Origin: an uncultured Bdellovibrionales bacterium
GTDB lineage: Bacteria > Patescibacteriota > Minisyncoccia > Moranbacterales > UBA1568
Length of the DNA stretch: 64,000 bases
Direction: 5' to 3'
Assembly: GCA_964384235.1 (NCBI GenBank)
Contig: CAYLJX010000005.1
Span: 5,289-69,288 of the forward strand
Below the pieces are notes generated by a model, which saw nothing but the letters and a program-made list of their open reading frames with translations, was not told the DNA's origin and made no database searches. Shown here piece by piece: positions 3,357-59,698 of this stretch; the stretch's first letter is position 1; every line of letters begins with the position of its first letter. A program made the position numbers and the translations under genes.

Positions 3357-3385
3357 GGCCTCAAGAAACGTACGAGTAGTATCAC

Positions 3386-3417
3386 AAAAATCCTCTTTCG
3401 AAAGAAGAGGATTTTTG
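3386..3417. terminator. Bidirectional rho-independent terminator after nrdB
   Basis: Hairpin aaaaATCCTCTTtcgaaaGAAGAGGATttttt with A-run and T-run on either side. Confidence 0.6.
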
Positions 3418-3470
3418 TAAAAAAAGAAAAGAGTTGTGATATAATGATGACACATATCTTTCTTTTTGTT

Positions 3471-4814
3471 ATGAACAAAAATAAAATCTTGTCGATTTTT
3501 TCCGTTTTCTTCTTGCTTGGATTCTTCGCATTCGTCAACGATGCCACCGCCAAGATGTGCGGCAGTGACAATACCGGTTCATGCCAAGTAGCCTGTTCCG
3601 GCAGCCAAAGATCGATCAATGACTCTACCAATGCCTGTTCCGGAGCATTGTCTGGGGCAGGCGGAACGGTATGCTGCTCACCCGCACAGGTGTCCGAGTG
3701 GCCATCGGCCCAGTGCTACGCCCTTGGCGGAGCCGCTGCGACTGATTGCGCCGACCAGTCGAACACGTTCGACGCTGGCATTCTCCTGACATCGGATTGC
3801 AAACCCTCTGTCCGCTGCTGTCTCCCGAGCGGGAAATTCAATGCCAGCAATCCTCTCCCGAATCCGCAGGCATGTACTACGAAGAGTTGCACAGATACCT
3901 CCGGTCAGCGCTGCACAAGCGGACCCCTTACAACCTGTAATGCTGGGGAACGAAATGTCACCGATGTCTGCCCAAGCAACGGAATATGCTGTCAGACCGT
4001 TCCACCGAACAATAATACAGGGAACGGGAACGGCTCTGGAAGCACCGGCACCGGCCTGACCGGGCAACTGAACTACACCCTCCTTGAAAAGATCCCTGGT
4101 GCGGAAGAGGCGGGAAGCGACCTCAAGAGCTATCTCGAGGCCCTCTACAAAATCGCCCTGGTTCTGGTGACGCTCTCCGCTGTCCTCATGCTCTCCATCG
4201 GCGGCTTCATGTACCTGACGAGCGCCGGGAACACCGCCCAGATGGGCAACGCCAAGGGCGTCATCACCGATGCCCTCATCGGCCTCGTCATCGCCCTCTT
4301 CGCCTGGCTCCTCCTCTACGTCATCAACCCCGATTTCGTCGGTGGAAGCATCAACGGCCTCTCGCCGGTAAGCGTCGCTCCCGGCTATTCACCTGCCGTC
4401 CCGGTCTCCGTCGAAGGCCAGTACACTCACGCTGAAGCCGTCGCCGCACTTCAGGCCCAAGGCATCAGCGTCACCAGCAGCGGCAACTGCAGCGACCAGA
4501 GCAACAAAACCTGCACCAGTCTGCAGGGTATCCCCAAATCCACCGTCGATAACCTCATCAAACTCAAGCAGGGATGCGGTTGCAGCTTTTCCGTTACCGG
4601 CGGAACAGAAGTCGGTCATGCATCGCACGGAACCGGGCGGGCAGTCGTGGATGTAAGCCTGTCGCTCAGATCATTTCTTCTCAACAACAAGGGATCTTTG
4701 ACCTCCCAATACAACGTCATCAAGATCTGTGCCACCAAAGACAATCAGGACGTCGCCATGGGCTGCTCATATATCGAACCACAACCGCACTTTCATCTTG
4801 TCTTTAAGTCATAA
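3471..4814 (+). CDS. Cysteine-rich secreted protein with a TrbC/VirB2-like (T4SS-pilin-like) two-helix membrane module and a C-terminal possible metallo-hydrolase-like domain
   Basis: Extended -10 TGaTATAAT at 3436-3444 overlaps the track start 3444, so the likely start is ATG 3471 (MNKNKILSIF... signal peptide ending AxA). About 25 Cys in the first ~200 aa, an Asn/Gly linker, then two hydrophobic helices flanking a short polar loop (IGGFMYLTSAGNTAQMGNAKG...ALIGLVIALFAWLL). The C-terminal region carries an H...D...HFH pattern. Confidence 0.5.
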   Translation: MNKNKILSIFSVFFLLGFFAFVNDATAKMCGSDNTGSCQVACSGSQRSINDSTNACSGALSGAGGTVCCSPAQVSEWPSAQCYALGGAAATDCADQSNTFDAGILLTSDCKPSVRCCLPSGKFNASNPLPNPQACTTKSCTDTSGQRCTSGPLTTCNAGERNVTDVCPSNGICCQTVPPNNNTGNGNGSGSTGTGLTGQLNYTLLEKIPGAEEAGSDLKSYLEALYKIALVLVTLSAVLMLSIGGFMYLTSAGNTAQMGNAKGVITDALIGLVIALFAWLLLYVINPDFVGGSINGLSPVSVAPGYSPAVPVSVEGQYTHAEAVAALQAQGISVTSSGNCSDQSNKTCTSLQGIPKSTVDNLIKLKQGCGCSFSVTGGTEVGHASHGTGRAVVDVSLSLRSFLLNNKGSLTSQYNVIKICATKDNQDVAMGCSYIEPQPHFHLVFKS

Positions 4815-4825: not shown

Positions 4826-5968
4826 GTGAGAAAGGTTTTCTATATCTCCTTCGGTCTCCTTATCCTGGTGCTCATCTTCCTGGGCGCCTACAATTTCGCG
4901 TTCCGTAACAACGTCAACAGCCCCGTCGCCGATCCGAACAAGAAAGAGATCAGGACGAACGACCAGACAAAAGGAACTTTCCAGCCGGCGACCGCCATCG
5001 CCAGTCCGGTGAACGAAAATCTCCTTGCTCCCGTCATCGGCTCCGACGGCACCCTCTACTACTACTCCCTCGACGACAAAAGCCTCAAAAAATCCACCCT
5101 GGAAGGGAAAAACAAAACGGTTCTCTTGAGCGACTTCCCCGGCACTCCGACCCGTATCCTCTGGTCCCCGAGAAAAGACAAGGTGCTCATTCTCCTCAAA
5201 GCAGAAAACGGGGCGTCCCAATGGTATTTCGCCGAACTCGGCAACCGGACGCTCGTTCCCCTGAAACCGGAAATCGGGCGCCTCACCTGGGACAATCTCG
5301 GCGAGAAGATCTTTTACCAGTATACGGACCAAAAAAGCGGTGAAAAAACGCTCAATGTCGCCAGTCCTGACGGCAGCAACTGGAAAACTCTCACCGCTCT
5401 CGGGAACCGGGATTCTTTCATTACAGCCATTCCGAAAAGTACCGTCGTCGCCTTCTGGAACCGACCCAATGCCCTGGAAAAGACCGTTTTGGAAAGCATC
5501 GGCTGGAACGGTGATGACCGTCACACGCTTCTCACTGATCAGTTCGGTGCCGACTACCTCTGGTCGCCGAGCGGGGACAGGATCCTGGTGAGCACTAGTA
5601 GTGAGAAGGGAGGCAACACCCTCTCGCTCAACCTGATGAACGGCCAGGGCGGCGAATACCGGTCCCTCTCCGTCCCGACCCTCGTCTCCAAAGTCGTCTG
5701 GTCCAAAGACGACCGGACCATCTACTACGCCCTACCTGGTGCTTTACCGGAAAACACCGTTCTTCCCAATGATTACTTCGAAAAGCCGCTCTACACGACC
5801 GACACCTTCTGGAAAATGGATGTCGTGACAGGAAAGAAAGATCGTCTCGTGGAGCTTAAAGAGGTGACCCAGAGCTTCGATGTGACTGACTTTCTCCTTT
5901 CTCCCGAAGAAGATACCCTTTTCTTCACCGACCGGCAGACGCACCGGCTGTACCGGATCGAATTGTAA
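4826..5968 (+). CDS. Membrane-anchored beta-propeller (TolB/PD40-like repeat) protein
   Basis: GTG start with an N-terminal TM helix; repeated DGS/SPDGS/WSKDDR motifs typical of PD40 propeller blades. Confidence 0.5.
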   Translation: MRKVFYISFGLLILVLIFLGAYNFAFRNNVNSPVADPNKKEIRTNDQTKGTFQPATAIASPVNENLLAPVIGSDGTLYYYSLDDKSLKKSTLEGKNKTVLLSDFPGTPTRILWSPRKDKVLILLKAENGASQWYFAELGNRTLVPLKPEIGRLTWDNLGEKIFYQYTDQKSGEKTLNVASPDGSNWKTLTALGNRDSFITAIPKSTVVAFWNRPNALEKTVLESIGWNGDDRHTLLTDQFGADYLWSPSGDRILVSTSSEKGGNTLSLNLMNGQGGEYRSLSVPTLVSKVVWSKDDRTIYYALPGALPENTVLPNDYFEKPLYTTDTFWKMDVVTGKKDRLVELKEVTQSFDVTDFLLSPEEDTLFFTDRQTHRLYRIEL

Positions 5969-7184
5969 GGGGAGGAAAAAAACCTAGTACTAGTACCGTC
6001 CAGAAAGCGGAGGCGAGGTCAGTCTTGAAGTACGGCGTGTCCGTCAGGCCGTATACGAGATAGAGAAGGAGCAGAGCGATACACAACAGCCGAAAAAATC
6101 TCTCGTCCGAAGAAGCTGTCCGCACCCGTTTCCACTGCTCCCGAAACCACACGGTCACCATCCCGATGAACCCGATGAGTCCGATCAAGCCTGTCTGAAG
6201 CCACAAAGCCAGATAGAGACTGTGCGGCTGCGGTACCGCCCACTCCAGATAGGGCGGAAAATACTGTTGATACTCCAGGTACACTTCCTGGAAGCGTCCG
6301 ATACCGATACCGAGAAGAGGGCTGTCTTCGATCATTCTTTCCGCCGAACGCCAGATCATCATCCGCGAAGCGAGTGAGGAGCGCTCGTCAAACGACACGA
6401 GGTCTTGCCACTTGTCCGTGTCTTTCTCGAAGAAAAAGAACGCTCCTCCGACCATGGCCACTGCCAAAAAAGTGAGGGTGGTCGCTTTAAAACGGGATTT
6501 TCCTTCTTGCTTACAAGAAAGTCCAAAAAAAATCCCGGCAACAGCAAGTGCTCCCCAGACACCGTATGAGTGCGTCTGATACAGGGCAAAGAGAAGAAAC
6601 ATAGCACTCAAAACAAAGAAAAAGCGAGGAAGAAAACTTCCTGAAATACGGTGAAGATAAAAAGCGATGAGGACTCCGGGCGAAAGAAAAATCGCCAGGT
6701 AATTCGGGGAGCCATACCAGGCGGACAGCCGGCCGTCATAGGTGACCTTACCAAGAACGAGATACGCGAGACTCGCCGCCGCCGTCAACACGAGAGCACC
6801 GAGCCACGCAAGCAGTATCCGCTTCCGATCACCTTCTTCGCCGACCTGAAGCCAGAGAAAAGCATAGAGCAAAGGGAACGCAAACCAGCTTTTGAGCATC
6901 CCGAGACCAGTGAACGTCTGTGGATTATACAGGAAGGATAACCAGGCTCCGAGAAGAAAAAGGTTGAGAAAGAGGATGAACCAAACAGAAACCAGGTCCG
7001 CGCCTCGAAACGTACACTGTTTTCTGAAAACCCCTGCCACAAACAAAAAAATGGCCGCCAAAACGAATCCCTCCGAAATATAGATCGGTAACCCAAGAAA
7101 AACCGCCTTCACCCGCGCGAAGGGAAGAGAAAGAATCACCCCCAAAAGAAGCCATTTTGTACCCCGGAGGAAAATGGAAGACAT
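5925..7184 (-). CDS. O-antigen ligase family (Wzy_C) polytopic membrane protein
   Basis: Many TM helices; conserved ...IWRSAERMIEDSPLLGIGIGRFQ...PHSLYL... O-antigen ligase core. The track start is 7250; an in-frame ATG at 7184 (MSSIFLRG) is the more likely start. Confidence 0.6.
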   Translation of the reverse strand: MSSIFLRGTKWLLLGVILSLPFARVKAVFLGLPIYISEGFVLAAIFLFVAGVFRKQCTFRGADLVSVWFILFLNLFLLGAWLSFLYNPQTFTGLGMLKSWFAFPLLYAFLWLQVGEEGDRKRILLAWLGALVLTAAASLAYLVLGKVTYDGRLSAWYGSPNYLAIFLSPGVLIAFYLHRISGSFLPRFFFVLSAMFLLFALYQTHSYGVWGALAVAGIFFGLSCKQEGKSRFKATTLTFLAVAMVGGAFFFFEKDTDKWQDLVSFDERSSLASRMMIWRSAERMIEDSPLLGIGIGRFQEVYLEYQQYFPPYLEWAVPQPHSLYLALWLQTGLIGLIGFIGMVTVWFREQWKRVRTASSDERFFRLLCIALLLLYLVYGLTDTPYFKTDLASAFWTVLVLGFFPPLTIRSGTAGASAGR

Positions 7185-7293
7185 AGGGTAATTATTACCA
7201 AACGTAGCACTCGCCAGATTCTGGAGGCAGGCGAGCGGCCATGACTCCAAGGCTCAGACTCGAAGAGAGTGGCGGTAAAATCGGGTTAACCCG

Positions 7294-7584
7294 TTAAATT
7301 TGCTTATTCACCTTCACTTCCCTCACTTCTTCCTTGCCGATGATCTCGTTGATCCGATCACAGAGATACTTCCGACGGAGAAAGACCTCGCTTGCCCAAA
7401 GGGAACTCCGGGGACTGAGGAAAAGTTTTTTTTCCTTGTAGAACGTCGGGATGATATTTTCTCCGCCACGTATCCCATACTCCTCAACTAAGACGCGCTT
7501 ACAGATATGGAAGAGGGTTTTTTCGTCGATTTCCTGGGGAACGACTATCTTTTTCGTCGGGAGAAGCTCCTTGAGAGTTCGCAT
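7294..7584 (-). CDS. DUF721/DciA-like small protein downstream of dnaN
   Basis: 96-aa ORF lying 2 nt after dnaN; size, position and C-terminal ...WASEVFLRRKYL...INEIIG... resemble DUF721 (DciA) family members found next to dnaN/recF. Confidence 0.45.
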   Translation of the reverse strand: MRTLKELLPTKKIVVPQEIDEKTLFHICKRVLVEEYGIRGGENIIPTFYKEKKLFLSPRSSLWASEVFLRRKYLCDRINEIIGKEEVREVKVNKQI

Positions 7585-14696: not shown

Positions 14697-15459
14697 ATTT
14701 TCCCTTATTTTCGTCAATTACCGGAGCGCCCGGTATCTTTCCCGGGCCCTGCGGAGTCTGTTCGCTTCCGAGAAAAAAGGCTCTTTCGAGGTTATCGTCG
14801 TGAACAATGACGAGAAAGAGGAACGCGTGCTTCAGGGGCTGCGGCAGTTTTTCCCTTTTCAATTGATCCAAAGCGGATCCAATATCGGTTTCGGTGCGGC
14901 TAATAATATCGGGGTGAGCGTCGCAAGAGGAAGCCTCATCGGATTTCTCAATCCCGATACGTTCTGGGAAGGAGAAAAGCTCCCAAACATTTCCCGGTCC
15001 TTTTCATCATATTCGAACGGAGGAGTACTGGGACTGGGGCTCATCGACGGGAAAGGAGAGCGTGAAACGTGGAGCGCGGGGCGATTTCCGACCCTTTTTC
15101 GGATAGTATGGAACAATATCGCCGGAGGGTATTTCTTGGGACAGGATGAATCCGTGGAATGGGTAAGCGGCGGAGCGCTCTTTATCCGCAAAGACGTCTT
15201 TCAGGGAATCGGCGGTTTCGATGAACGGTTTTTTCTGTACTTCGAGGATGTGGATCTCTGTGTCCGGGTGAAAGAAATCGAATACGAGGTGCGACTCGAT
15301 CCGCAGATGAACCTTCGGCACTATGGAGGAAAGAGTCATTTTTCCCGGGGGCGTCAGAAAATGGATTTTTTCCGTTCCCAGGATCGTTATTTTCGGAAGC
15401 ATCGGCCTTGGGAATACGTGGGTTTAAGAGTATTGCGATTTCTCCGGTATGGGTTCTGA
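14680..15459 (+). CDS. Family 2 glycosyltransferase (second copy)
   Basis: FSLIFVNYRSARYL...VIVVNNDEKEE...GFGAANNIG motifs. Start taken at ATG 14680 (MQEIPEF), overlapping the upstream gene by 17 nt; the track start is 14617. Confidence 0.75.
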   Translation: MQEIPEFSLIFVNYRSARYLSRALRSLFASEKKGSFEVIVVNNDEKEERVLQGLRQFFPFQLIQSGSNIGFGAANNIGVSVARGSLIGFLNPDTFWEGEKLPNISRSFSSYSNGGVLGLGLIDGKGERETWSAGRFPTLFRIVWNNIAGGYFLGQDESVEWVSGGALFIRKDVFQGIGGFDERFFLYFEDVDLCVRVKEIEYEVRLDPQMNLRHYGGKSHFSRGRQKMDFFRSQDRYFRKHRPWEYVGLRVLRFLRYGF

Positions 15460-16738
15460 AGAGACCGAAAAAGAAGGAAGGATGCTCCACTGGCTGCTTG
15501 GGGGGTATTTTTTCATTCTCCCTTTCCAGTTCGCGCTCAGTCCCCTTCCTGGTATCGATCTTCCTTTGATGCGGGCAGGCTCTCTCATCTTGGTGCTTCT
15601 GTGGCTTTCTTTCGGTCTTTTCAGGCGTCGGATCGATCTTCCTCGGAGTCCGATAGCTCTTTTTTTGGTAAGCTTTCTCGCTCTTTCGCTCTTTTCTTTC
15701 TTTGTCGCGGAAAACCAGTCGTGGTTCGTAAGAAAGAGTCTTTTTCTACTCTCGTTTCTTCCGTTTTTCTTCGTCATCGCGGCAGGAACCGTGAAGCCGC
15801 AAGAAAAAGTTTCTCTCGCCAAGGCCTTCGTCTCCGGCGCCGCCCTCTCTGCGGGCATCGGCATCCTTCAGTTCCTCTCCCAGTTCGTCTTTTCGGTGGA
15901 AACCGTTTTTTCTTTCTGGACGCGGTCGGCGCTGCCGATATTCTTGGGCCGATCGTTCGGAGAGGTGGTGGCGACATACCCGAGCCTCCTGGTCAATATC
16001 GGTGGGGAGACGGTTTTGCGCGCCTCTTCGCTGTTCCCAGACCCGCACATGGCCGCCTTTTATTTCGGTATGGCGTTTCCGATCGCTCTCGCCCTCTCTT
16101 TTCTGGTACAAGGAAAGAAAGAAAAGAAGTGGCTGCTTGCCGCTTCGGCTTTTCTTTTGGCAGCGGATCTGCTGACGTTCTCGCGAGGCGGATATGTCGG
16201 ACTGTTTGGAGCCGGCCTTATCGGTGCCGGAATATTCTTCGGTCGGAAAGTTTCCGCGAAGAAACTCATAACCGGCAGTATGGTAATCCTGCTCCTTGGC
16301 GTTCTCTTCGTAGCGAGCCCTGTGGGGGAACGCTTCCTATCGAGCTTTTCTCCGAGTGACGGATCGAACAGCGAGCGTCTCCGGCTGTGGCAGGAGGGTC
16401 TGGGGCATCTCTCGGAGCAGCCCTTTTTCGGGTACGGCTTGGGGAATTACCCGCTCATCGTCAAGCCGAGCGCGGCGTATCGTGAGCCGATCTATGCGCA
16501 CAACCTCTATCTCGATATCGCCCTTGAGACAGGACTTGCCGGCCTCGTGTTTTTTCTCCTTTTTCTTTTCGGATCTCTGTCCATAGCGTGGCGGAAGTGG
16601 AAAAAAAGTGTCGATATTTTTTCCTTAGGAATCTTCTTTTCCCTTCTGGTCTTCTCTTTTCACGCGTTTTTCGAGACCCCACTCTTTTCAGTGCATATCC
16701 TGCCGATACTTCTTCTCTTGACCGCGCTTGCGGTATAA
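15449..16738 (+). CDS. O-antigen ligase/polymerase (Wzy_C domain) membrane protein
   Basis: Many TM helices; FSRGGYVGL...RLRLWQEGLGHLSEQPFFGYGLGNY...HNLYLDIALETGLAGL motif; ATG overlaps the upstream stop (ATGGGTTCTGA). Confidence 0.7.
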   Translation: MGSEETEKEGRMLHWLLGGYFFILPFQFALSPLPGIDLPLMRAGSLILVLLWLSFGLFRRRIDLPRSPIALFLVSFLALSLFSFFVAENQSWFVRKSLFLLSFLPFFFVIAAGTVKPQEKVSLAKAFVSGAALSAGIGILQFLSQFVFSVETVFSFWTRSALPIFLGRSFGEVVATYPSLLVNIGGETVLRASSLFPDPHMAAFYFGMAFPIALALSFLVQGKKEKKWLLAASAFLLAADLLTFSRGGYVGLFGAGLIGAGIFFGRKVSAKKLITGSMVILLLGVLFVASPVGERFLSSFSPSDGSNSERLRLWQEGLGHLSEQPFFGYGLGNYPLIVKPSAAYREPIYAHNLYLDIALETGLAGLVFFLLFLFGSLSIAWRKWKKSVDIFSLGIFFSLLVFSFHAFFETPLFSVHILPILLLLTALAV

Positions 16739-19583: not shown

Positions 19584-20465
19584 TTATAAGGAGTGAAGCG
19601 AAGATTTTCCTGAATGTTTTTTTAGGGCATACTCGACGATGTGTTCGGCGGGGTTGATGCCGGTGGCTTTCTTGAACGCCTGCCACTGCGGAGTATGGTT
19701 GACTTCCAAAATGCTGTATCCGGAGGAGGTTTCCACGAGATCCACTCCGGAGACTTCGTATCCTAGCGTGGCAGTAGCCTGTCTGGCGATATCTTCCATT
19801 GCTGGGGTTGTTGCGATTGCCTCACTCTTTGCTCCAAGGGAAGCATTTGAACGTATGTCACTATCGAGTACATGTCGTCGGATGGCGCCGAGCACTTTGC
19901 TGCCGATAATAAAAATGCGGATATCGGAACGTATCGGCAGATATTCCTGAAAGAGGTGAGATCTGGAATGTTCCTTGAAAAAATCAAGGACCTCACCTTT
20001 CGTTTTGAGGAGCGAGATATCTTCCCCGCGAGCGCCATCAATCGGTTTGGCTATGAGCGGCAGACCAAGATGTTCCAGGGTTGTTTCAAGGATTTCAAGA
20101 GAGGACGTATAGAGGGTTTTCGGGTGTGGGAGTCCTGCACTTTGGAAAAGTTGCGCTTGGGAAGCTTTGTTGGCGATGTCCTTGGTGGCGACAGCATCAT
20201 CAACGATTGTTTTTTTTGCATGGAGCGCGGCGCGGCTGAGGATTCTTGCCAAGCGAAAGTTTTTCTCGAATCCGCGAAAGAGAAAGATGTCCGTTTCATC
20301 GAGAAGAGAGATGTCATTCCATATCACGCGGAAGGAATGGTCCTCCGAGAAGAATCCGATCTCGGAGAGGAGGGTGGTACGGGACTGATGGCCGGCCTTC
20401 TCTATCGCCTCGATGAGGTCGAGGGTGTTTTCCGATCGACGCGATCCGATGATGGTAAAGCGCAT
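19584..20465 (-). CDS. RimK-like ATP-grasp ligase (alpha-L-glutamate ligase family)
   Basis: Internal ATG (MRFTIIGSRRSEN) used as start; the track ORF begins at a TTG at 20642 that overlaps the upstream gene. RimK-like motifs: LPLIAKPIDGARGEDI, DIRIFIIGSKVLGAIRR, DIRSNASLGAK, GVDLVETSSGYSILEVNHTPQW. Confidence 0.7.
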   Translation of the reverse strand: MRFTIIGSRRSENTLDLIEAIEKAGHQSRTTLLSEIGFFSEDHSFRVIWNDISLLDETDIFLFRGFEKNFRLARILSRAALHAKKTIVDDAVATKDIANKASQAQLFQSAGLPHPKTLYTSSLEILETTLEHLGLPLIAKPIDGARGEDISLLKTKGEVLDFFKEHSRSHLFQEYLPIRSDIRIFIIGSKVLGAIRRHVLDSDIRSNASLGAKSEAIATTPAMEDIARQATATLGYEVSGVDLVETSSGYSILEVNHTPQWQAFKKATGINPAEHIVEYALKKHSGKSSLHSL

Positions 20466-20472
20466 AAGAATT

Positions 20473-21477
20473 TCAGAGCGAAAGACCGGGGAAGAGATCG
20501 TTGAGGAGGATTCCTGATATGTCGGTCGCTGTGCCCTCGACGAGCGGTTTTTCGTGCATGTTGTGGTAGGGGCGGGAATTGATTTCCAGAATGGTGTATT
20601 CTGATCTGCTGATATCCGGAGAAATGATGTCGATTCCGGCAAAGGTCAGACCGACCGCCTCGGTCGCGGCGATGCAGGCAGCCTTGGTGTCGGGATGGAC
20701 CTCGGATGTGCAGTCGATGGCGCGACCGCCGTCCGACATGTTGAGATTGTGTCGCAGGCGAAGCGTAGATCCTTTGGGAAGCACCGAACGGAAAGTCAGA
20801 TGCTCCTTTTTCAGGGTGGCCCTTACGGATTTGTCGATGCGTATCTCGAATCCCTTGTCACGTGTTTTATTGAAGGCTTGGATAAGTTCATCGATGGATG
20901 ATGTACCGTCGCCGATGACACTTGCCGGAACCTTGTTGACGCAGGCCAAGACCCTGTTTTTGAAGACGATGAGGCGGTATTCTTTTCCATCAACCATCTC
21001 TTCGACGATGAAGGGTGCCTTCCCCTTGTCTTTGGAAGCTTTTGAGAATTTCTGTGCCAAGGGAATAGCCTGCGCGAGTTCTTTCTGGGAGGAAATGTTC
21101 CAGGTGACTCCTCGGGCGAGCGATGAGTCCAGCGGTTTGCAGATGAGAGGGAAAGAAAGAGAAGACGTTTTTATTTTCCGTCTGCATTCCGAGAGCGAAG
21201 AAGCGACGATCCCTTTCGGGACGGAGATGCCGTTTTCCATCAGAACCGTTTTGGTGGCAAGCTTGTTGGTGACGGCTGCGTTGCCGTACCTCTTCGTAAG
21301 AGGGATATACCATTCGGTCGTAAAGATATCCTTCCCGTCGTAAGAGAGCTTGTATACTTTCGGTGCATCCATAAGGATCTCGACCGAAACCCCGAGCTCG
21401 AGAGCGCGGTTCATGAACGATCTGAATCCGCCGTGCTTGAAGCGTTTGATGTCTTCTTTGGTGAGTACTTTTTTCAT
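20473..21477 (-). CDS. Cyanophycin-synthetase-N-terminal-like ATP-grasp ligase
   Basis: Start taken at internal ATG (MKKVLTKEDI), 7 nt after the upstream stop. Strong resemblance to the CphA-type ATP-grasp: PASVIGDGTSSIDELI, LRLRHNLNMSDGGRAIDCTSEVHPDTKAACIAATEAVGLTFAGIDIISPDIS...ILEINSRPYHNMHEKP. Confidence 0.65.
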   Translation of the reverse strand: MKKVLTKEDIKRFKHGGFRSFMNRALELGVSVEILMDAPKVYKLSYDGKDIFTTEWYIPLTKRYGNAAVTNKLATKTVLMENGISVPKGIVASSLSECRRKIKTSSLSFPLICKPLDSSLARGVTWNISSQKELAQAIPLAQKFSKASKDKGKAPFIVEEMVDGKEYRLIVFKNRVLACVNKVPASVIGDGTSSIDELIQAFNKTRDKGFEIRIDKSVRATLKKEHLTFRSVLPKGSTLRLRHNLNMSDGGRAIDCTSEVHPDTKAACIAATEAVGLTFAGIDIISPDISRSEYTILEINSRPYHNMHEKPLVEGTATDISGILLNDLFPGLSL

Positions 21478-21484
21478 AATGGTC

Positions 21485-22897
21485 TTACTTGTGCTTATTC
21501 GTATCGATAAGAAATCTTCCCAGATTTTTCCGTCCGATGATGACAGGGTATTCCAGCTGTGATCGGTCGATGATCGATACGCGAGCGGGGATTTCCGCGC
21601 CGTCGAGAACAAAGGATATCTTCACCTTCGGTCGCATCGTGAAGCCGTTGGAGGAATAGGTGAATGCGATGCCGTCCAGGTCCGGGTGGGCATTCTTGTA
21701 TTTCGCATCGTACTGGTCCGAAACCTGTTTCAGTTCCTCGCGGTTTCCGGATTCCGGCTTCGGAATGGTCTCGAAAAACTCGAGCACCGAAGAAAATCCC
21801 AACTGTTTGGCGAGTTCGGTGTCGATGGAGGTGGAGTCGGCGCCGGTGTCGATCTTGGCCTCCACCTCGATCTCCTTGCCGTCCTTGCCGATGAGCTTCA
21901 CTTTCTCCACGGTGCCGATGACGCGCTTGCCGGAGAGCTCCTCGATTTCCTCCTCGATCTCGCCGCCGAAGATGTTTTTCGCGACGCGCATGCCGTGCTC
22001 GACGGATTTGATCTTGAGACCTTGGACGCGCGTGAGGCGTTCCTTGAGACCGGAGAGGTTGGCGAGCTGGATGGAGAGTCCCGGGCGGGCGTTGAGCTCG
22101 AGGATGACCGGGCCCTGTTCGCGGTCGATGGCGATGTCGGCGCCGAGGAAACCGAGGCCGGAGATCTCCTGTGCCTGGATGGCCATGCGGAGGATGTCTT
22201 TCCAGTAGGGGATCTTGATACCGGAGAGGACCAGGCGGGTGCCGGGGACGTATTCGATCAAGTGTCCCTTGCCGAGGATGGCGGTCGTCGTGGTGCCGGA
22301 GGCGAGGTCGATGCCGACCCCGACCGCACCCTGCTGAAGGTTCGCCTTGCCGTCGGAGGCACGCGTCGGGAGGCGAAGCATCGCCATGACGGGCACGCGG
22401 TTGAAGACGATGACGCGGATGTCGGGGATACCCTTGAAGGTGTAGGGCTTGAAGAGTTTCAGGAGCTTGAGACGTTCCTCGAAAAAGGCGACGTCGGGAG
22501 TGTTGGCGAGGGAGAAGGAACCGTCGAGGATGTTTCGGATATGGTTCTTGAGGTCCTCGATGGTGATGACGGTGCCGTCGGCCTTGATCCATCCATCGAC
22601 ACCGTTCTTCTTACGCGCGTAGACGACGAGGATGCCTTCACCGCCGAAGCCGCGATTGGGCTTGAGGGCGAAGCTGTTGGGTAGGGTCGACCAGTCGAAA
22701 CGTTCCAGTTCCTCATGGGTGCGGATCTTGCCGATCAGTCCGGAGACGCCCAAACCGTTTTTCTTGAGGATGCGTTTGCAGAGGAGTTTGTTGTCGGCGA
22801 TCTCCCGGCCATGCGCGCGGTTGTAGGAGCGGATGTAGGAGAGGTTCCGCGCGTTCATGCCGAGGAGGCCACGGCTTTTGGTGAAGAGTTCGAGCAT
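21485..22897 (-). CDS. Fusion: alpha-L-glutamate-ligase-related ATP-grasp (N-terminal) plus clan AA DTGA retropepsin-like protease domain (C-terminal)
   Basis: N-terminal LGMNARNLSYIRSYN...FALKPNRGFGGEGI...GADIAIDREQGPVILELNARPGLSIQ is ATP-grasp-like. The C-terminal ~150 aa carry the DTGA active-site signature (EAKIDTGADSTSID) and a ...VIIGRKNLGRFLIDT tail typical of DUF785/RimK-associated aspartic proteases. Confidence 0.65.
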   Translation of the reverse strand: MLELFTKSRGLLGMNARNLSYIRSYNRAHGREIADNKLLCKRILKKNGLGVSGLIGKIRTHEELERFDWSTLPNSFALKPNRGFGGEGILVVYARKKNGVDGWIKADGTVITIEDLKNHIRNILDGSFSLANTPDVAFFEERLKLLKLFKPYTFKGIPDIRVIVFNRVPVMAMLRLPTRASDGKANLQQGAVGVGIDLASGTTTTAILGKGHLIEYVPGTRLVLSGIKIPYWKDILRMAIQAQEISGLGFLGADIAIDREQGPVILELNARPGLSIQLANLSGLKERLTRVQGLKIKSVEHGMRVAKNIFGGEIEEEIEELSGKRVIGTVEKVKLIGKDGKEIEVEAKIDTGADSTSIDTELAKQLGFSSVLEFFETIPKPESGNREELKQVSDQYDAKYKNAHPDLDGIAFTYSSNGFTMRPKVKISFVLDGAEIPARVSIIDRSQLEYPVIIGRKNLGRFLIDTNKHK

Positions 22898-22961
22898 AGT
22901 CTAAAAAGACAAAAGGCAAGAGGCAGTAGGCAGGAGGGAGAAAAAGAATTCAACGTGCCTT

Positions 22962-23618
22962 TTAAAAGTTTCGCAAGATTTTTCGGAAGCGAAAATATTC
23001 TGTCAGTCGCAATCCCGTCCACTTGCCGAGGCCGAGGTTCACGAGGAACGTGAAGAGTACGGCCCACGGATACTGCAGGAAGAAGGTGGTGAGCGTTTCG
23101 GAACTCACGAGGAAGTAGCCGACGACAGAGATGATGAGCGTTTCGACGGCGAGGAGAAAGGCGACGCGCGTGCCCTTTTCGATCTGGGTGGCGACGAATT
23201 TTTCCGTGAGCGTGATCATGATGAGGAGGGGGAAGATGGAAACGGACGCCAGGCCGGTGCGCTGGAACATGCCGCCGAAGACGAGGATGCCGAGGATGGC
23301 GAGCGAGACGATGGAGAGAGTGATGGCGACGCGCGGGAGGTAGAGGAGGCGGAAGCGCCGCAGGGCGTAGCGCGAGAGCATTCCCACCAGGATGATGGCG
23401 ACAAAGATGGCGATGCCGTACTTCACGCCGTTCGGATCAAAGGCGAGCAGGGCGAACGTGATGATGGACGGCGTATAGATGCCGAAAGCCTTGATGCCGA
23501 CCACCTGGCGGAAGAAGGCGACGAGCGTGGCGATGACGGGCAGCATCAACAGGAGCTGTACCGTCTGGAGCGGCACGCCCTGTTCGACGAAGAAGAGGAT
23601 GAAAGGATGGTAGTCCAT
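22962..23618 (-). CDS. Polytopic (~6-7 TM) membrane protein, first gene of the ATP-grasp operon (7TM module of ATP-grasp/transglutaminase-type systems?)
   Basis: 218 aa from ATG 23618 (MDYHPF); almost entirely hydrophobic helices; position upstream of the ATP-grasp genes. Confidence 0.45.
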   Translation of the reverse strand: MDYHPFILFFVEQGVPLQTVQLLLMLPVIATLVAFFRQVVGIKAFGIYTPSIITFALLAFDPNGVKYGIAIFVAIILVGMLSRYALRRFRLLYLPRVAITLSIVSLAILGILVFGGMFQRTGLASVSIFPLLIMITLTEKFVATQIEKGTRVAFLLAVETLIISVVGYFLVSSETLTTFFLQYPWAVLFTFLVNLGLGKWTGLRLTEYFRFRKILRNF

Positions 23619-23735
23619 ATGCTTAAAAACTCGAAATACGAAACCCGAAATACTAAACAAATCCTAAAATCGAAGCGATAAATCCCAAATACTCGTTTAA
23701 AATTTCTGTTTTGAAATTTAGATTTTGTTTCGGAT

Positions 23736-28178: not shown

Positions 28179-31100
28179 CTATTCTTCCGTGACGCGTTCG
28201 ATCTCTTCGAGAGTGGTCTTGCCTTCGAGGACGGAGAGAATGCCGTCCTGGGCGAGGGTGATCATGCCGTTCTCGATCGCCTTGCTTTCGATCTCGTGGG
28301 CGAGCGCTCCTTGGGTGATCAGGGCGGCGATGTCTTTGTCGAGAGAGAGGACCTCGCTTATGATGACCTGCCCGTTGAAGCCGCTCCCGTTGCATTCGGG
28401 GCAGCCCTTGGCACGGAAGAGGGAAACAGTGTCAGATACCTGTTTTTTGAGTGCGGGTGGCAGCGTGGCGATGATTTTTTCCATGAGCGCGCGTTCTTCC
28501 GGGGTGGTGTCGGATTTTTCTTTGCAGTGGTCGCAGAGGCGGCGCACCAGGCGCTGCGCGATGAAGGCGTTCCCGGCGTTCGCGAGATCGTCGCTGCTGA
28601 TACCCATGCCGAGAAGGCGGGGAATGGTGCCTGAGGCGTTGTTGGCATGGAGCGTCGAGAGGACGAGGTGGCCGGTGACGGCGGCCTGGACGGCGATTCC
28701 CGCGGTCTCCTGGTCGCGGATCTCACCGATCATGAGGATGTCAGGGTTCTGCCGGAGAAGCGAACGGAGTGCGGTGGCGAAGGTGTATCCGTCCGCCTCG
28801 TTGATCTGGGTCTGGAGCAGTCCCGGGATCTGATACTCGATCGGGTCCTCGACGGTGATGATCTTGATTTCCGGCGTGTTGATGTGGGAGAGGAGGCTGT
28901 AGAGCGTGGTAGTCTTGCCGGAGCCGGTCGGACCGGCGTTGAGGATGATGCCATAGGGCTTCTTCACGGCTTCCAGGATGCGGTCGAGGTTTTCCTGGCG
29001 GATGTCGAGGGACTCGAGCTTGAGGGAAGTGGCGGACTTGTTGAGGAGACGCATCACGACCGTCTCGCCGAAGCCGCCGAGGATGAGCGAGAGACGGACA
29101 TCGATCTTGGTGTCGGTGACGGAGCCGTAGGGTTCCTGGAGGGTGAGAGAGAAGCGTCCGTCCGTGACCCCGGCGCGTTCGCCTGATTTCAATCCGGCGA
29201 AGATCTTGATCTGGCCGAGGATGGCCGGGTATTCGTCCAGAGGAAAGGAGAGGGCGTTCTTGAGAATGCCGTCGATACGGTAGCGGACCAGGACGTTCTC
29301 TTCGGTCGGTTCGATGTGGATGTCGCCGGCCCGCAGGAGGAGCGCCGCCGCAAAGACCGTCTTGAGGAAGGTCTGCTGGTCGATCGTCCCGACGTAGGCG
29401 GCGAGGTCGTCGAGCGAGGCGAGGTGGGTTTCGGTTTCCGCGAGGATCGCCGGCGAGAGGAAGGAGTGCGACGAGAGGGCGCTCGGCATGAGTTCCGCGT
29501 AGACTTTCTTGAGCATGTCGCCCTGATCCGCCACGCGCCAGACTTCCTCGAAGGTGGTGATGCCCTCGATGGCCTTGAGGATACCGTCCTGGGTCATGGT
29601 GATCATACCGTCCTCGAGGGCGACCTTGGTGATCTCGTCTTCGGTGCCGAGATCGTTGATGATCTTGATGAGGGTCGGGCTCATGACGAAGACTTCGAAG
29701 ATGCCGATCCGGCCACGATAGCCGGTGAAGTGACACTCCGCGCAGCCGGCCGCTTTCCAGAGCTTGTCGATGGTCTTGGGGACGGTGATCTTGGCCTTGG
29801 GGGAAACGATGGAGATGAGCTGCTTGAGGGAGGCGACGGTCTCTTCGGCCGGGGCGTAGGACTCTCTGCAGGACGGGCAGAGCTTGCGGACGAGGCGCTG
29901 CGCGATGAGGGCGTTGACGGAAGAAGTGATGAGGTTCGGTTTGACGCCGAGCTCGAGGAGGCGCGGGATGGAGGCCGGGGCGCTGTTGGCGTGGAGCGTC
30001 GAGAGGACGAGGTGGCCGGTGAGGGCAGCGTTGATGGCGATGTCGGCGGTCTCGTCGTCTCGGATCTCGCCGACGAGGATGACATCCGGGTCCTGGCGGA
30101 CGACGGCGCGCAGGGCTTGGGCGAAGGTGTAGCTCTTGCTTTTGGAGACCTCCGTCTGGAGGATGCCGGGAAGGTTGTATTCGATCGGATCCTCGACGGT
30201 GATGATCTTGACGCCGGGCTGGTTGATGGTGTTGAGCAGACTGTAGAGTGTGGTGGTCTTGCCGGAGCCGGTCGGACCGGTGTTGAGGATCATTCCGTGA
30301 GGCTTCTCGATCTGCTTGCGCACTTCCTCATAGGCGAGGCCGCGCAGTCCGAGGTCTTCTACTTCGACGATGATGTCGTCGCTACTGAGGAGACGCATGT
30401 TGAGGCTTTCACCGTGCTTGCCGGGGATGCTGTTGACACGGATGTCGATACGCTTTTCATCCATGGTGACGAAGAAGTGTCCGTCCTGGGCCCGGTCCCG
30501 CACGTTGAGGCGCATCTTGCCGAGCATCTTGATGCGGGAGAGCGCGAGGTGATAGATATCCGGGGAAAATTTCCCCACGTCTTGCAGGACGCCGTCGATA
30601 CGGTAGCGGAGGCGCGCATCATCTTCTTCCGGTTCGATATGGATGTCGCTCGCCTTCATCTTCTTGGCGCCGGCCAGGATGACTTCCAGGATGTTCGAGA
30701 CGGAAGTCTGGTGCAGGTTGTCCTTGAGCTGGAGGAGGGCGCCGAAGTTCTCCTCGAATTTCTCGAGATCGTTTCCCGAGAGGTTGACCCGTATCAGGTC
30801 CAGGCTTTCCAAGAGCGAGGTCCGGGTGTAGGCGGCGAGGGCTTTCTCGAAGGACGGTCGGGAAACGACGTGGAGAGTGGTATCCCAGCCATGCCCGGAG
30901 GCGAGTGTCTGAACGTACTCGAGCGTTGCCTGGTTTCCAGGATCGACGATGGCGATGTGGGTCGTCTCGCCGGTCTTCTGGAAGAGGGCGACCTCATGTT
31001 TCTTTGCGTCTTCCTTGGGAATGAGCGCGAGGTCCTCGGGATCGAGCGGGAAGAGGTGGAGATCGATATAGGAGAGACCGTTTTTGGCGGCGAGTGTCGC

Positions 31101-31208
31101 GGCCTCCTCTTCGATCGAGGCTTCGTGCATCTTCTTGAGGAGCGCGTCGGCCCTGGCTTGCTTTTCGGGATCGCCGATTGAAGGGATGGAGGAGATGACT
31201 TTGGGCAT
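28179..31208 (-). CDS. Tandem-fused double GspE/PilB-family secretion ATPase (N1-N2-CTD-N2-CTD in one polypeptide)
   Basis: 1009-aa uninterrupted ORF. An N-terminal T2SSE_N domain is followed by two complete ATPase modules, each with Walker A GPTGSGKTTTLYSLL, an Asp box, Walker B DPDVILVGEIRD / NPDILMIGEIRD, a His box TGHLVLSTLHAN and a tetracysteine motif (CPSC...CAEC and CDHC...CPEC). Confidence 0.85.
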   Translation of the reverse strand: MPKVISSIPSIGDPEKQARADALLKKMHEASIEEEAATLAAKNGLSYIDLHLFPLDPEDLALIPKEDAKKHEVALFQKTGETTHIAIVDPGNQATLEYVQTLASGHGWDTTLHVVSRPSFEKALAAYTRTSLLESLDLIRVNLSGNDLEKFEENFGALLQLKDNLHQTSVSNILEVILAGAKKMKASDIHIEPEEDDARLRYRIDGVLQDVGKFSPDIYHLALSRIKMLGKMRLNVRDRAQDGHFFVTMDEKRIDIRVNSIPGKHGESLNMRLLSSDDIIVEVEDLGLRGLAYEEVRKQIEKPHGMILNTGPTGSGKTTTLYSLLNTINQPGVKIITVEDPIEYNLPGILQTEVSKSKSYTFAQALRAVVRQDPDVILVGEIRDDETADIAINAALTGHLVLSTLHANSAPASIPRLLELGVKPNLITSSVNALIAQRLVRKLCPSCRESYAPAEETVASLKQLISIVSPKAKITVPKTIDKLWKAAGCAECHFTGYRGRIGIFEVFVMSPTLIKIINDLGTEDEITKVALEDGMITMTQDGILKAIEGITTFEEVWRVADQGDMLKKVYAELMPSALSSHSFLSPAILAETETHLASLDDLAAYVGTIDQQTFLKTVFAAALLLRAGDIHIEPTEENVLVRYRIDGILKNALSFPLDEYPAILGQIKIFAGLKSGERAGVTDGRFSLTLQEPYGSVTDTKIDVRLSLILGGFGETVVMRLLNKSATSLKLESLDIRQENLDRILEAVKKPYGIILNAGPTGSGKTTTLYSLLSHINTPEIKIITVEDPIEYQIPGLLQTQINEADGYTFATALRSLLRQNPDILMIGEIRDQETAGIAVQAAVTGHLVLSTLHANNASGTIPRLLGMGISSDDLANAGNAFIAQRLVRRLCDHCKEKSDTTPEERALMEKIIATLPPALKKQVSDTVSLFRAKGCPECNGSGFNGQVIISEVLSLDKDIAALITQGALAHEIESKAIENGMITLAQDGILSVLEGKTTLEEIERVTEE

Positions 31209-40626: not shown

Positions 40627-40739
40627 AACGTTACAAAGTCAAAAATCAAAAGTTAAAAGTTTCGGAGCTGAGACATAACCATTTGTAGCATGGGAGCGCG
40701 CTTTTGGCAAGGGAAAGGGAAAAGTGCTAGTCTAGGAGT

Positions 40740-41312
40740 ATGATCGCACAATTGCAAGGAAAAATAGCGGGAATAAACGGAAACTCCATCATCCTCATGG
40801 TCGGGGGCGTGGGATACAAGGTGTTCGTCTCCCCGTATACCCTGGGCAAACTCGTTGGAAGAGTGGACGACGTGCTCCTCCATATCTACACTCAGGTACG
40901 CGAAGACATCCTCGCGCTCTATGGTTTTCTCGACGAGGAAGAGCTCAACATGTTCGAGCTTCTCATCTCCGTGTCCGGTATCGGACCCAAGGTCGGTCTC
41001 TCGATCCTTTCCATCGCGAACGTCAATACTATCAAGACTGCCATCGTCAACAAAGACCCCTCGATCCTCACGCGCGTCTCGGGAGTCGGCAAAAAGACCG
41101 CCGAGCGCGTCATCGTGGAACTTCAGAACAAAGTGGATGCCTTGGGTGTAGAAGATCAGGCCGGGGCGCTCGTCGGACAGGAAGCCCTCGAGGCGCTTAC
41201 GGCCCTCGGCTATTCCGTGACGGAAGCCCGTGAGGCGCTCAAGCTCGTGCCGGTGGAAGTCTCCGACGTCGGTGCGCGCGTCCGCCAGGCACTGAAGAAC
41301 CTGGGAAGGTAG
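40740..41312 (+). CDS. ruvA: Holliday junction DNA helicase RuvA
   Basis: MIAQLQGKIAGINGNSIILMVGGVGYKV... with OB fold, HhH motifs (GIGPKVGLSIL, VSGVGKKTAERV) and a C-terminal domain. Confidence 0.9.
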   Translation: MIAQLQGKIAGINGNSIILMVGGVGYKVFVSPYTLGKLVGRVDDVLLHIYTQVREDILALYGFLDEEELNMFELLISVSGIGPKVGLSILSIANVNTIKTAIVNKDPSILTRVSGVGKKTAERVIVELQNKVDALGVEDQAGALVGQEALEALTALGYSVTEAREALKLVPVEVSDVGARVRQALKNLGR

Positions 41313-41462
41313 ATTCCAAATCCCAAGTACCAAAATACAAACAAACCACGAATATCAATGACCAAAATCACAAAACGGTTTTTTAGGACATTGGAGTTTT
41401 GGTGATTGGAATTTTTTTGGAAATTGGGATTTGGTGCTTGGTACTTGTGTAACGACACTACT

Positions 41463-44225: not shown

Positions 44226-44347
44226 GGTTCTCTCCTTAGCGCGTGGTGGGTGGAAGGTACTGCGAAATATTTCCCACTTTAGGGAAAAGAAAGACGGTTG
44301 TCAACAGACAACCGCCTCGGATACCAAGAAGGATTTTGAGAGAAACC

Positions 44348-46477: not shown

Positions 46478-46490
46478 ACCAGGTAGGAGC

Positions 46491-59694: not shown

Positions 59695-59698
59695 AACA

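What the first reader, a model, noticed from the sequence alone, without database searches (positions are those of the whole stretch)
3444..4814. Cysteine-rich secreted protein carrying a TrbC/VirB2-like conjugative-pilin module
The protein has four parts: a signal peptide, a ~200-aa region with about 25 Cys, an Asn/Gly linker, and two hydrophobic helices around a short polar loop (IGGFMYLTSAGNTAQMGNAKG / ALIGLVIALFAWLLLYVIN). That two-helix topology is the one found in TrbC/VirB2 T4SS pilins and in the T4SS-pilin family reported from CPR bacteria. A ~150-aa C-terminal domain follows, with an H...D...HFH arrangement reminiscent of LAS/M15 zinc peptidases.

A pilin module sandwiched between a disulfide-rich ectodomain and a putative hydrolase is unusual. 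It could be a surface appendage subunit with an adhesin or cell-wall-cutting function. The gene has its own extended -10 promoter and sits between a terminator and a TolB-like propeller gene.
Basis: partly seen in the sequence, partly recalled or inferred. Interest (0 to 1): 0.6.

Follow-up and report, generated by a model that had tools for sequence, protein, structure and literature searches.

The report
T4SS pilin fused to wall-cutting peptidase
This gene from an ultrasmall Moranbacteria (CPR/Patescibacteria) genome encodes a conjugation-type (VirB2-like) pilin membrane hairpin carrying a cysteine-rich surface domain on one end and a zinc peptidoglycan-peptidase-like domain on the other; I found no description of such a fusion, and it may show how these epibionts get a secretion apparatus through cell walls.

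Summary
ORF 3444-4814 (+) is real, though the true start is probably M10 at 3471. It encodes a signal peptide, three 6-Cys modules (18 Cys, not ~25), an Asn/Gly linker, a two-helix hairpin and a 130-aa C-terminal domain.

- **Hairpin:** it matches Pfam PF18895 T4SS_pilin above the curated cut-off.
- **C-terminal domain:** no Pfam or PDB sequence match. A confident AF2 model (pLDDT 92) finds mainly LAS zinc peptidases (MepA, Sonic hedgehog-N, M15 endolysins). The LAS site residues H395, D403, E445, H449 and H451 are conserved.
- **Family size:** 1,827 clusters at 50% identity. Of 135 representatives, 101 also match PF18895.
- **Domain swapping:** at the same syntenic locus in other Moranbacteria, the pilin hairpin is fused to NlpC/P60 or SLT domains instead. 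This argues that the C-terminal domain cuts peptidoglycan.
- **T4SS link:** the gene directly follows a VirB4/PrgI/TraC-like cluster in about 10 of 80 genomes. In one RNR-type genome it sits about 33 kb from a pilin-less T4SS cluster on the same contig. The window itself holds no T4SS genes.

Best reading: a VirB2-like T4SS subunit that carries a wall-cutting enzyme. Pilus formation and enzyme activity are untested. It is a new variant of a known kind.

The parts
3384..3418 (+). Intrinsic-terminator-like hairpin ending the upstream ribonucleotide reductase genes
   Evidence: 15-bp stem, -18.3 kcal/mol, z = -6.2 against shuffles, followed by UUUUU.
3437..3445 (+). Extended -10 promoter-like box TGATATAAT
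   Evidence: Pattern match. It overlaps the first ATG at 3444 and was not called by the sigma-70 scan, which requires a -35 element. Promoter function is inferred.
3471..4814 (+). Probable true coding sequence (M10 to stop). The mechanical ORF starts at 3444.
   Evidence: Homologues align from query residue 10 and share the MxKNK start. The -10 box overlaps the ATG at 3444.
3471..3551 (+). Signal peptide (MNKNKILSIFSVFFLLGFFAFVNDATA, ending in an AxA site)
   Evidence: Hydrophobic segment at aa 13-36. The cleavage site is inferred from the sequence; no signal-peptide predictor was available.
3552..3992 (+). Cys-rich ectodomain: three modules (aa 37-78, 79-126, 127-183), each ending in CC, 18 Cys in total
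   Evidence: Orthologues carry 0, 6, 12, 18 or 24 N-terminal Cys, i.e. 0-4 modules. There is no Pfam match. In the AF2 model only module 2 is confident (pLDDT 85-92), and there is no PDB fold match.
3993..4058 (+). Asn/Gly/Thr-rich flexible linker (aa 184-205)
   Evidence: Sequence. pLDDT is below 50 in the model.
4059..4334 (+). VirB2-like T4SS-pilin module: conserved Y.LLE.IPG motif, TM1 (aa 236-258), polar loop TSAGNT..AK (259-273), TM2 (274-296), conserved INPD
   Evidence: PF18895 at 33.3 bits, above the gathering score of 26.6. A sub-threshold NF045849 hit to a pilin-like conjugal transfer protein. 71% mean identity across 77 homologues. It is the only such ORF in the window.
4335..4418 (+). 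Pro/Ser/Val-rich linker (aa 298-325)
   Evidence: Lowest conservation in the protein, 29%.
4419..4811 (+). LAS-type zinc-peptidase-like domain (aa 326-456). Putative site residues: E389, H392, H395, D403, E445, H449, H451. It has 6 Cys.
   Evidence: AF2 pLDDT 92.4. Foldseek top hits are ShhN, MepA, ChiX, LysECD7 and VanX, and phage Peptidase M15/M15A and MepK with probability up to 0.99. The motif GHASHGTG..VD / PHFH parallels MepA's GGHASHQTGLDVD / AHMH. Conservation is shown.
4826..5968 (+). Conserved partner gene: N-terminal TM segment plus a possible beta-propeller, 380 aa, starting 11 nt after the stop codon
   Evidence: It lies immediately downstream of the pilin gene in about 80 of 85 related loci, including those next to a T4SS cluster. 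Only weak TolB/PD40/DUF5050 hits.

Best explanation
The gene encodes the VirB2-like (PF18895) component of the monoderm-type type IV secretion system of a Moranbacteria (Patescibacteria) cell, built as a three-part fusion.

Proposed mechanism, with each step marked as shown or inferred:
- After Sec export and signal-peptide removal, the two hydrophobic helices form a membrane hairpin with the short polar loop in the cytoplasm. Both ends are then outside the cell. This topology is inferred from the sequence. It is consistent with 24 Cys lying only in the two end domains.
- The N-terminal end displays three disulfide-rich modules of unknown fold. A binding or adhesion role is inferred only from their variable copy number.
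- The C-terminal end displays a LAS-family zinc peptidase. The fold and the conserved H/D/E/HxH site are shown. Catalysis is inferred.
- The hairpin is the part that engages the T4SS, and possibly polymerises as VirB2 does. This is inferred from family membership, its extreme conservation and gene neighbourhood.
- The hairpin thereby holds a peptidoglycan-cleaving enzyme where the apparatus must cross a cell wall. That is first the cell's own wall and, if the hairpin is extruded, the host's wall.

The 380-aa membrane-anchored neighbour is probably co-transcribed and co-functional.
For: - PF18895 matches above its curated cut-off. Of 135 diverse proteins that share the C-terminal domain, 101 hit PF18895 and 7 hit TrbC/VirB2.
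- The hairpin is the best-conserved region: 71% against 51% and 29%.
- The C-terminal model has pLDDT 92.4. Its best fold matches are nearly all LAS peptidases.
- H395 and H451 are invariant, H449 is in 77/78, D403 in 67/78, and E445 is at least 90% conserved. The arrangement matches the LAS site of ShhN (H141, D148, E177, H181, H183; PMC4102407) and the MepA motifs.
- The rare non-pilin partners of this domain are PG_binding_1, PG_binding_3, 3D and SLT.
- At the same syntenic position, other Moranbacteria fuse the same hairpin to NLPC_P60, SLT_3 or SLT, all above their Pfam cut-offs, or to other HxH-ending LAS-like domains.
- The gene is the next-to-last gene of a LysM-CHAP / PrgI / TraC-like / VirB4 cluster in about 10 of 80 loci.
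- In Moranbacteria UBA1302, an RNR-type locus like the window's lies on the same 68-kb contig as a T4SS cluster that has no pilin gene of its own.
- Published work reports VirB2-like pilins as widespread and, in one species, essential in Patescibacteria T4SSs, which often lie near dnaA (PMC12102498, PMC10633639).
Against: - No T4SS gene lies within the 64-kb window. The rest of this genome could not be examined.
- About 65 of 80 orthologues sit beside ribonucleotide reductase and cell-envelope genes rather than T4SS genes.
- The protein is 3-4 times larger than typical VirB2 pilins. No evidence shows that a subunit with two bulky ectodomains can polymerise.
- His to Asp spacing is x7, whereas MepA has x6.
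- T4SS clusters in this clade already encode a LysM-CHAP hydrolase, so a second wall-cutting enzyme is not obviously needed.
Confidence: 0.6

Rival explanations
1. It is a housekeeping membrane-anchored autolysin. The two helices are only an anchor, evolutionarily derived from a pilin, and the enzyme remodels the cell's own wall during growth or division, independently of any T4SS.
For: It sits in a conserved single-copy position near oriC among envelope genes: Wzy_C, glycosyltransferases, a flippase and PBP1. In about 65 of 80 genomes it is not adjacent to T4SS genes. There are no T4SS genes in the window.
Against: The hairpin is more conserved than the catalytic domain and includes conserved loop and flanking motifs (Y.LLE.IPG, TSAGNT, AK, INPD) that an anchor would not need. 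It matches PF18895 above threshold. It lies directly at the end of T4SS operons in about 10 loci, and those clusters have no other pilin. The rapid turnover of the hydrolase type is odd for an enzyme tuned to a cell's own wall.
Confidence: 0.2
2. It is a polyprotein precursor. As with the C-terminal processing of TrbC-type pilins (my recollection of RP4 TrbC/TraF biology), the protein is cut after TM2 near the conserved INPD motif. This would release a small mature pilin and a free secreted peptidase. A CPBP/Rce1-like intramembrane protease encoded in the T4SS clusters could do the cutting.
For: INPD at aa 294-297 is at least 94% conserved, directly before the least conserved linker. An Rce1-like protease gene (25.1 bits against a gathering score of 22.4) lies two genes upstream of the pilin gene in L005, with a counterpart in L092. 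Interchangeable C-terminal hydrolase domains fit a releasable cargo.
Against: There is no direct evidence of cleavage. The N-terminal Cys-rich modules would still remain on the pilin. The window contains no homologue of that protease.
Confidence: 0.12
3. The C-terminal domain is a non-catalytic LAS-fold binding module, as Sonic hedgehog-N is commonly regarded. It would be used together with the Cys-rich modules purely for adhesion to a host surface.
For: The top PDB fold hit is ShhN. ShhN has the LAS zinc site but no proven peptidase activity (PMC4102407).
Against: The full set of zinc-ligand and catalytic-type residues is conserved across hundreds of diverged sequences. The domain is replaced by bona fide hydrolase families (NlpC/P60, SLT) in orthologues, and it co-occurs with PG-binding domains.
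Confidence: 0.08

Closest known systems
VirB2/TrbC/TraA conjugative pilins and the Patescibacteria VirB2-like pilins (Pfam PF18895; pilin arrays of Ca. Southlakia epibionticum ML1 and Nanosynbacter TM7x)
   Same: Signal peptide plus a two-helix hairpin with a short polar loop. PF18895 match above threshold. Relatives also hit TrbC. Association with a VirB4/PrgI cluster and with the oriC region in related genomes (PMC12102498).
   Different: The precursor is 447 aa with about 150-aa ectodomains on both ends, rather than a small pilin of roughly 100-150 aa. It is a single gene rather than an array. In this window it is not next to T4SS genes. Polymerisation is unknown.
LAS zinc peptidases: E. 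coli MepA (M74, PDB 1u10), M15 enzymes (VanX 1r44, ChiX 5opz, phage L-Ala-D-Glu endopeptidases, MepK) and Sonic hedgehog N-domain
   Same: The predicted fold retrieves these proteins. The motif order H-x-x-H...D then E-x3-H-x-H is shared. The local identity GHASH.TG is shared with MepA, and E-x3-H-x-H is as in ShhN.
   Different: No Pfam or PDB profile hit. His to Asp spacing is x7, not x6. It has a conserved TGGTE motif and 4-6 conserved Cys. It is tethered to a pilin hairpin. Activity and substrate are unknown.
VirB1-type T4SS peptidoglycan hydrolases of monoderm systems (PrgK, TcpG, TraG of pIP501; SLT and CHAP/NlpC-P60 domains)
   Same: A membrane-tethered wall hydrolase encoded with a T4SS. 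Syntenic orthologues of this gene carry SLT, SLT_3 or NlpC/P60 domains.
   Different: Here the catalytic domain is LAS-type and the tether is a VirB2-like hairpin rather than a single TM helix. The clade's T4SS clusters additionally encode a separate LysM-CHAP protein.
Modular type IV pilins such as Streptococcus sanguinis PilB and PilC (from my memory of the literature; not checked here)
   Same: The concept of a conserved pilin assembly module with a functional globular module grafted on for display.
   Different: These belong to a different and unrelated pilin superfamily (type IV pili, not T4SS). Their modules are adhesins, not peptidoglycan hydrolases.

Membership tests
Pfam PF18895 T4SS_pilin (Patescibacteria VirB2-like pilins) | Profile HMM score at or above the curated gathering threshold | tested here: met
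   33.3 bits against 26.6, E = 5.3e-8, aa 231-294 covering profile positions 9-71 of 71.
Pfam PF18895 T4SS_pilin (Patescibacteria VirB2-like pilins) | Signal peptide followed by two hydrophobic helices separated by a short polar loop | tested here: met
   Kyte-Doolittle peaks at aa 13-36, 233-260 and 272-298. No dedicated topology predictor was available.
Pfam PF18895 T4SS_pilin (Patescibacteria VirB2-like pilins) | Encoded with T4SS genes (VirB4, PrgI/VirB3, VirB6-like) | tested here: inconclusive
   Not met in the 64-kb window. Met for orthologues in about 10 of 80 loci. In UBA1302 a T4SS cluster lies on the same contig.
Pfam PF18895 T4SS_pilin (Patescibacteria VirB2-like pilins) | Small protein consisting essentially of the hairpin | tested here: not met
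   447-456 aa, with about 170 aa N-terminal and about 160 aa C-terminal to the hairpin.
Pfam PF18895 T4SS_pilin (Patescibacteria VirB2-like pilins) | Assembles into, or is required for, a T4SS pilus or channel | not testable with these tools
   Needs experiments or multimer modelling.
Pfam PF04956 TrbC/VirB2 | Profile HMM match | tested here: not met
   No hit for the query at E <= 1. 7 of 135 relatives hit, with a best E of 3e-6.
LAS metallopeptidases (M15, M74, Hedgehog-N) | LAS fold (zinc ligands carried on a common antiparallel beta-sheet) | tested here: met
LAS metallopeptidases (M15, M74, Hedgehog-N) | Conserved His...Asp and His-x-His zinc-site motifs in that order | tested here: met
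   H395 78/78, D403 67/78, H449 77/78, H451 78/78, and E445 at least 90%. D403 is invariant and H395 and H449 are at least 90% conserved in 135 diverse representatives. Spacing is H-x7-D, against x6 in MepA.
LAS metallopeptidases (M15, M74, Hedgehog-N) | Sequence-profile membership of a curated peptidase family (Peptidase_M15, M15_2/3/4, M74, HH_signal) | tested here: not met
   No such Pfam hit for the query or for 33 relatives, even at E <= 10. No PDB profile hit. hhalign against MepA aligned only a 13-residue motif at probability 3.5%, and against MepK found nothing.
LAS metallopeptidases (M15, M74, Hedgehog-N) | Zinc binding and peptidoglycan peptidase activity | not testable with these tools
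VirB1-like T4SS wall hydrolases | SLT/lysozyme-like or CHAP/NlpC-P60 catalytic domain | tested here: not met
   The query has neither. Syntenic orthologues do: NLPC_P60 at 27.5 bits, SLT_3 at 30.6 and SLT at 27.0, each above its cut-off.

The most novel reading that the evidence does not exclude
The hairpin really polymerises, so Moranbacteria build a T4SS filament whose surface (or tip) is studded with peptidoglycan hydrolases and disulfide-rich binding modules. This would be a 'wall-drilling' pilus that digests its way through the host cell wall to establish the epibiotic connection.

The interchangeable hydrolase types (LAS, NlpC/P60, SLT) and the variable number of Cys modules (0-4) would then reflect adaptation to different host wall chemistries.
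Probability: 0.15. Interest if true: 0.85.

Novelty: new variant of a known kind. Interest (0 to 1): 0.62.

Why it matters
Patescibacteria T4SSs are essential for epibiotic growth in the one species tested, yet their function is unknown (PMC10633639, PMC11665869). They are unusual among monoderm systems in encoding VirB2-like pilins (PMC12857230).

This work shows that in a whole clade the only VirB2-like gene found with the T4SS is a fusion to a peptidoglycan hydrolase, with interchangeable hydrolase types. That gives a concrete, testable idea of what the 'pilin' does. It may also explain why most pilin-bearing genomes lack a recognisable VirB1 (PMC12102498).

The work also defines a large LAS-like domain family, about 1,800 clusters at 50% identity, that no curated profile tested here captures.

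Tried and rejected
- **Sequence searches on the C-terminal domain.** Pfam at E <= 10 on 33 members and a PDB profile search gave only noise.
- **hhalign.** Against E. coli MepK it found nothing. Against MepA it aligned only the 13-residue zinc-motif segment.
- **Genome scan.** The diverse alignment A2 was too divergent to seed a genome scan. A3 was used instead.
- **N-terminal ectodomain.** The AF2 model was only partly confident (pLDDT 68.8) and had no PDB fold match. Its fold and role remain unknown, so I make no adhesin claim beyond inference.
- **Regulatory scans.** The sigma-70 and terminator scan called neither the -10 box nor the upstream hairpin. Both were checked separately.
- **Locating a VirB4 on the window's own contig.** I tried matching contig lengths among VirB4 homologues. 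No match to the 80,391-bp contig appeared among the 120 listed, so the presence of a T4SS in this genome is unresolved.
- **Other pilin paralogues or arrays in the window.** None found.
- **Phage or mobile-element origin.** Considered and rejected: the locus is a stably syntenic chromosomal oriC-proximal region.

Full report
**1. What is in the sequence**

The ORF 3444..4814 (+) is real and encodes 456 aa. A 15-bp hairpin followed by a U-run at 3384-3418 (-18.3 kcal/mol, z = -6.2) ends the upstream ribonucleotide reductase genes. An extended -10-like box, TGATATAAT, lies at 3437-3445. That box overlaps the first ATG, and homologues begin at the equivalent of M10 with a shared MxKNK start. The true start is therefore most likely 3471, giving 447 aa. 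The generic promoter and terminator scan called neither feature.

Hydropathy shows three hydrophobic segments: aa 13-36, which is signal-peptide-like and ends in ATA, then aa 233-260 and aa 272-298. The protein has 24 Cys. Eighteen lie in aa 39-183 and six lie in the C-terminal domain, with none in the hairpin.

**2. The hairpin is a T4SS-pilin-family module**

- Pfam PF18895 (T4SS_pilin) matches aa 231-294 at 33.3 bits, above the gathering score of 26.6 (E = 5e-8).
- NCBIfam gives a sub-threshold hit to the Mbov_0395 pilin-like conjugal transfer family.
- Among 77 homologues, TM1-loop-TM2 is the most conserved region. Mean identity to the query is 71%, against 51% for the C-terminal domain and 29% for the linker.
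- Several motifs are invariant or nearly so: Y.LLE.IPG, GGF.YLTSAGN, AK and INPD.

This level of conservation is not what a simple anchor would show. With the signal peptide removed and two membrane spans, both termini should be extracytoplasmic. That fits the restriction of Cys to the two end domains. The topology is an inference.

**3. The C-terminal domain is LAS-like**

It has no Pfam or PDB sequence match, even at permissive thresholds. An AlphaFold2 model built from a 33-sequence alignment is confident (pLDDT 92.4, pTM 0.87).

Foldseek against the PDB gives individually weak hits (E = 0.065-5), but they are nearly all LAS proteins: Sonic hedgehog N-domain, MepA, ChiX, LysECD7, the RB49 L-Ala-D-Glu peptidase and VanX. 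Against BFVD the best hit has probability 0.99 (E = 1.5e-3). The list is dominated by Peptidase M15/M15A, MepK-like and tape-measure peptidase domains.

The motifs agree with this assignment:
- The query has VGH392ASH395GTGRAVVD403 and E445PQPH449FH451.
- E. coli MepA has GGHASHQTGLDVD and AHMH.
- ShhN's site is H135, H141, D148, E177, H181 and H183 (PMC4102407).

Conservation of the site residues is high. H395 and H451 are invariant, H449 is present in 77/78 homologues, D403 in 67/78, and E445 is at least 90% conserved. In 135 diverse representatives, E389 and D403 are invariant.

Two differences from known LAS enzymes remain: an H-x7-D spacing where MepA has x6, and no curated family membership.

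**4. Size and architecture of the family**

A profile of the C-terminal domain finds 1,827 representatives at 50% identity with E <= 1e-3, and 972 with E <= 1e-10. Most have a signal peptide, two TM segments and then the domain.

Of 135 representatives scanned with Pfam, 101 hit PF18895, 7 hit TrbC/VirB2 and 1 hit TraA. The few other partners are PG_binding_1, PG_binding_3, 3D and SLT, all of which are peptidoglycan-related.

**5. The N-terminal region**

It consists of modules of about 42-57 aa, each ending in CC. Orthologues have 0, 6, 12, 18 or 24 N-terminal Cys, which corresponds to 0-4 modules. The window protein has three. Only module 2 is modelled confidently, and nothing in the PDB resembles the model. 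Its function is unknown.

**6. Genomic context**

The window is a chromosomal oriC-proximal region. It holds RNR, the target gene, a 380-aa partner gene, Wzy_C, DciA, dnaN, dnaA, rnpA, yidC, polysaccharide genes, PBP1, ruvABC, polA and type IV pilus genes. It holds no VirB4, VirB6 or VirD4, and it has only one hairpin ORF.

A scan of GTDB representative genomes found 406 related loci, almost all in Candidatus Moraniibacteriota. The 80 best were fetched and examined:
- About 65 have the order RNR, pilin gene, 380-aa partner, Wzy ... dnaA.
- About 10 instead have T4SS genes directly upstream of the pilin gene: p695, p431, PrgI, TraC-like, VirB4, a CPBP-like p214 and p878.

In those clusters, the fusion or a tandem pair of fusions is the only VirB2-like ORF detected.

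In Moranbacteria UBA1302, an RNR-type locus (L078, about 17 kb into the contig) shares a 68-kb contig with a complete T4SS cluster at about 50-63 kb. That cluster has no pilin gene. So genomes with the window's arrangement can carry the T4SS elsewhere. Whether this genome does could not be tested.

**7. Hydrolase-domain swapping**

Syntenic orthologues keep the hairpin (36-72% identity), but their C-terminal domains differ:
- the LAS type seen here;
- a type with the canonical M15 motif S.H..G.A.D plus HIH, with a sub-threshold Peptidase_M15_4 hit;
- other LAS-like domains that end in HxH;
- NLPC_P60 (27.5 bits, gathering score 23);
- SLT_3 (30.6 bits, gathering score 27);
- SLT (27.0 bits, gathering score 21.3).

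Replacement of one wall-hydrolase family by another at a fixed locus is strong comparative evidence that the C-terminal domain's job is to cut peptidoglycan.

**8. Interpretation**

The best-supported reading is a VirB2-like T4SS subunit that tethers a peptidoglycan peptidase, plus Cys-rich modules, to the outer face of the membrane or to a filament. The enzyme would then clear the wall where the apparatus passes.
- Shown: family membership, conservation, fold-level similarity to LAS peptidases, the domain swapping and the neighbourhoods.
- Inferred: topology, catalysis, interaction with the T4SS, polymerisation and the target wall.

Three rivals remain open: a T4SS-independent autolysin, a polyprotein processed at the conserved INPD motif, and a non-catalytic adhesin.

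**9. Comparison with the literature**

Recent work describes VirB2-like pilins, pilin arrays and oriC-proximal T4SSs in Patescibacteria, and notes that most pilin-bearing genomes lack VirB1 (PMC12102498; PMC12857230; PMC10633639). I found no description of pilin-hydrolase fusions.

Pfam does have a lysozyme-like family, SLT_3 (PF18896), numbered next to PF18895. The LAS version is not captured by any profile tested here. I therefore rate this a new variant of a known kind.

Noticed in passing
L005:6675-7319 (and L092:12452-13114): A CPBP/Rce1-like intramembrane protease gene (PF02517, 25.1 bits against a gathering score of 22.4) sits inside the Moranbacteria T4SS clusters, two genes upstream of the pilin-hydrolase gene. 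It is a candidate pilin-processing enzyme. No homologue is present in the window.
   Followed up: partly
window 4826-5968: A 380-aa protein with an N-terminal TM segment and only weak beta-propeller signals (TolB, PD40, DUF5050, all sub-threshold). It is almost invariably the gene immediately downstream of the pilin-hydrolase gene, including in T4SS-adjacent loci, so it is probably a functional partner of unknown role.
   Followed up: partly
window 28179-31208 (-): A 1009-aa protein with two T2SSE matches (751 bits) plus an MshEN domain. It appears to be a tandem fusion of two PilB/GspE-type ATPase units.
   Followed up: no
window 19584-23660 (-): A cluster of a RimK-like ATP-grasp gene, an ATPgrasp_ST plus Zn_protease fusion, and a 7TM_transglut membrane protein. 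This resembles a peptide-modification or transglutaminase-associated system.
   Followed up: no
window 53110-62515: A CHASE4/PAS sensor, a PAS histidine kinase and a response regulator, followed by type IV pilus genes: a PilB-like T2SSE, a PilC-like T2SSF and a weak T2SSL/PilM-like gene.
   Followed up: no
window 7294-7584 (-): A DciA-family gene (29.6 bits against a gathering score of 24) lies directly beside dnaN and dnaA. This indicates a DciA-type helicase loader at the origin region.
   Followed up: no
L012, L014-L017 and many other loci: Many MAG records titled 'uncultured Bdellovibrionales' carry this Moranbacteria-specific syntenic block (RNR, pilin gene, partner, Wzy ... dnaA). The record titles are probably taxonomic mislabels.
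   Followed up: no
L062:7087-10780, L087:7131-9944, L086, L070: Four loci carry two tandem hairpin-hydrolase genes rather than one. This suggests local duplication of the fusion gene, reminiscent of the pilin arrays reported in other Patescibacteria.
   Followed up: partly
window 40653-42491, 43803-44928, 45554-48029, 51742-53183, 60337-61035: Several ORFs of 140-380 aa in these stretches have no Pfam match at E <= 1e-3.
   Followed up: no
window 5925-7250 (-) and 15449-16738 (+): Two Wzy_C (O-antigen ligase-like) genes bracket a flippase and two GT2 glycosyltransferases around the origin. This envelope-polysaccharide block is conserved next to the pilin-hydrolase pair in related genomes.
   Followed up: no
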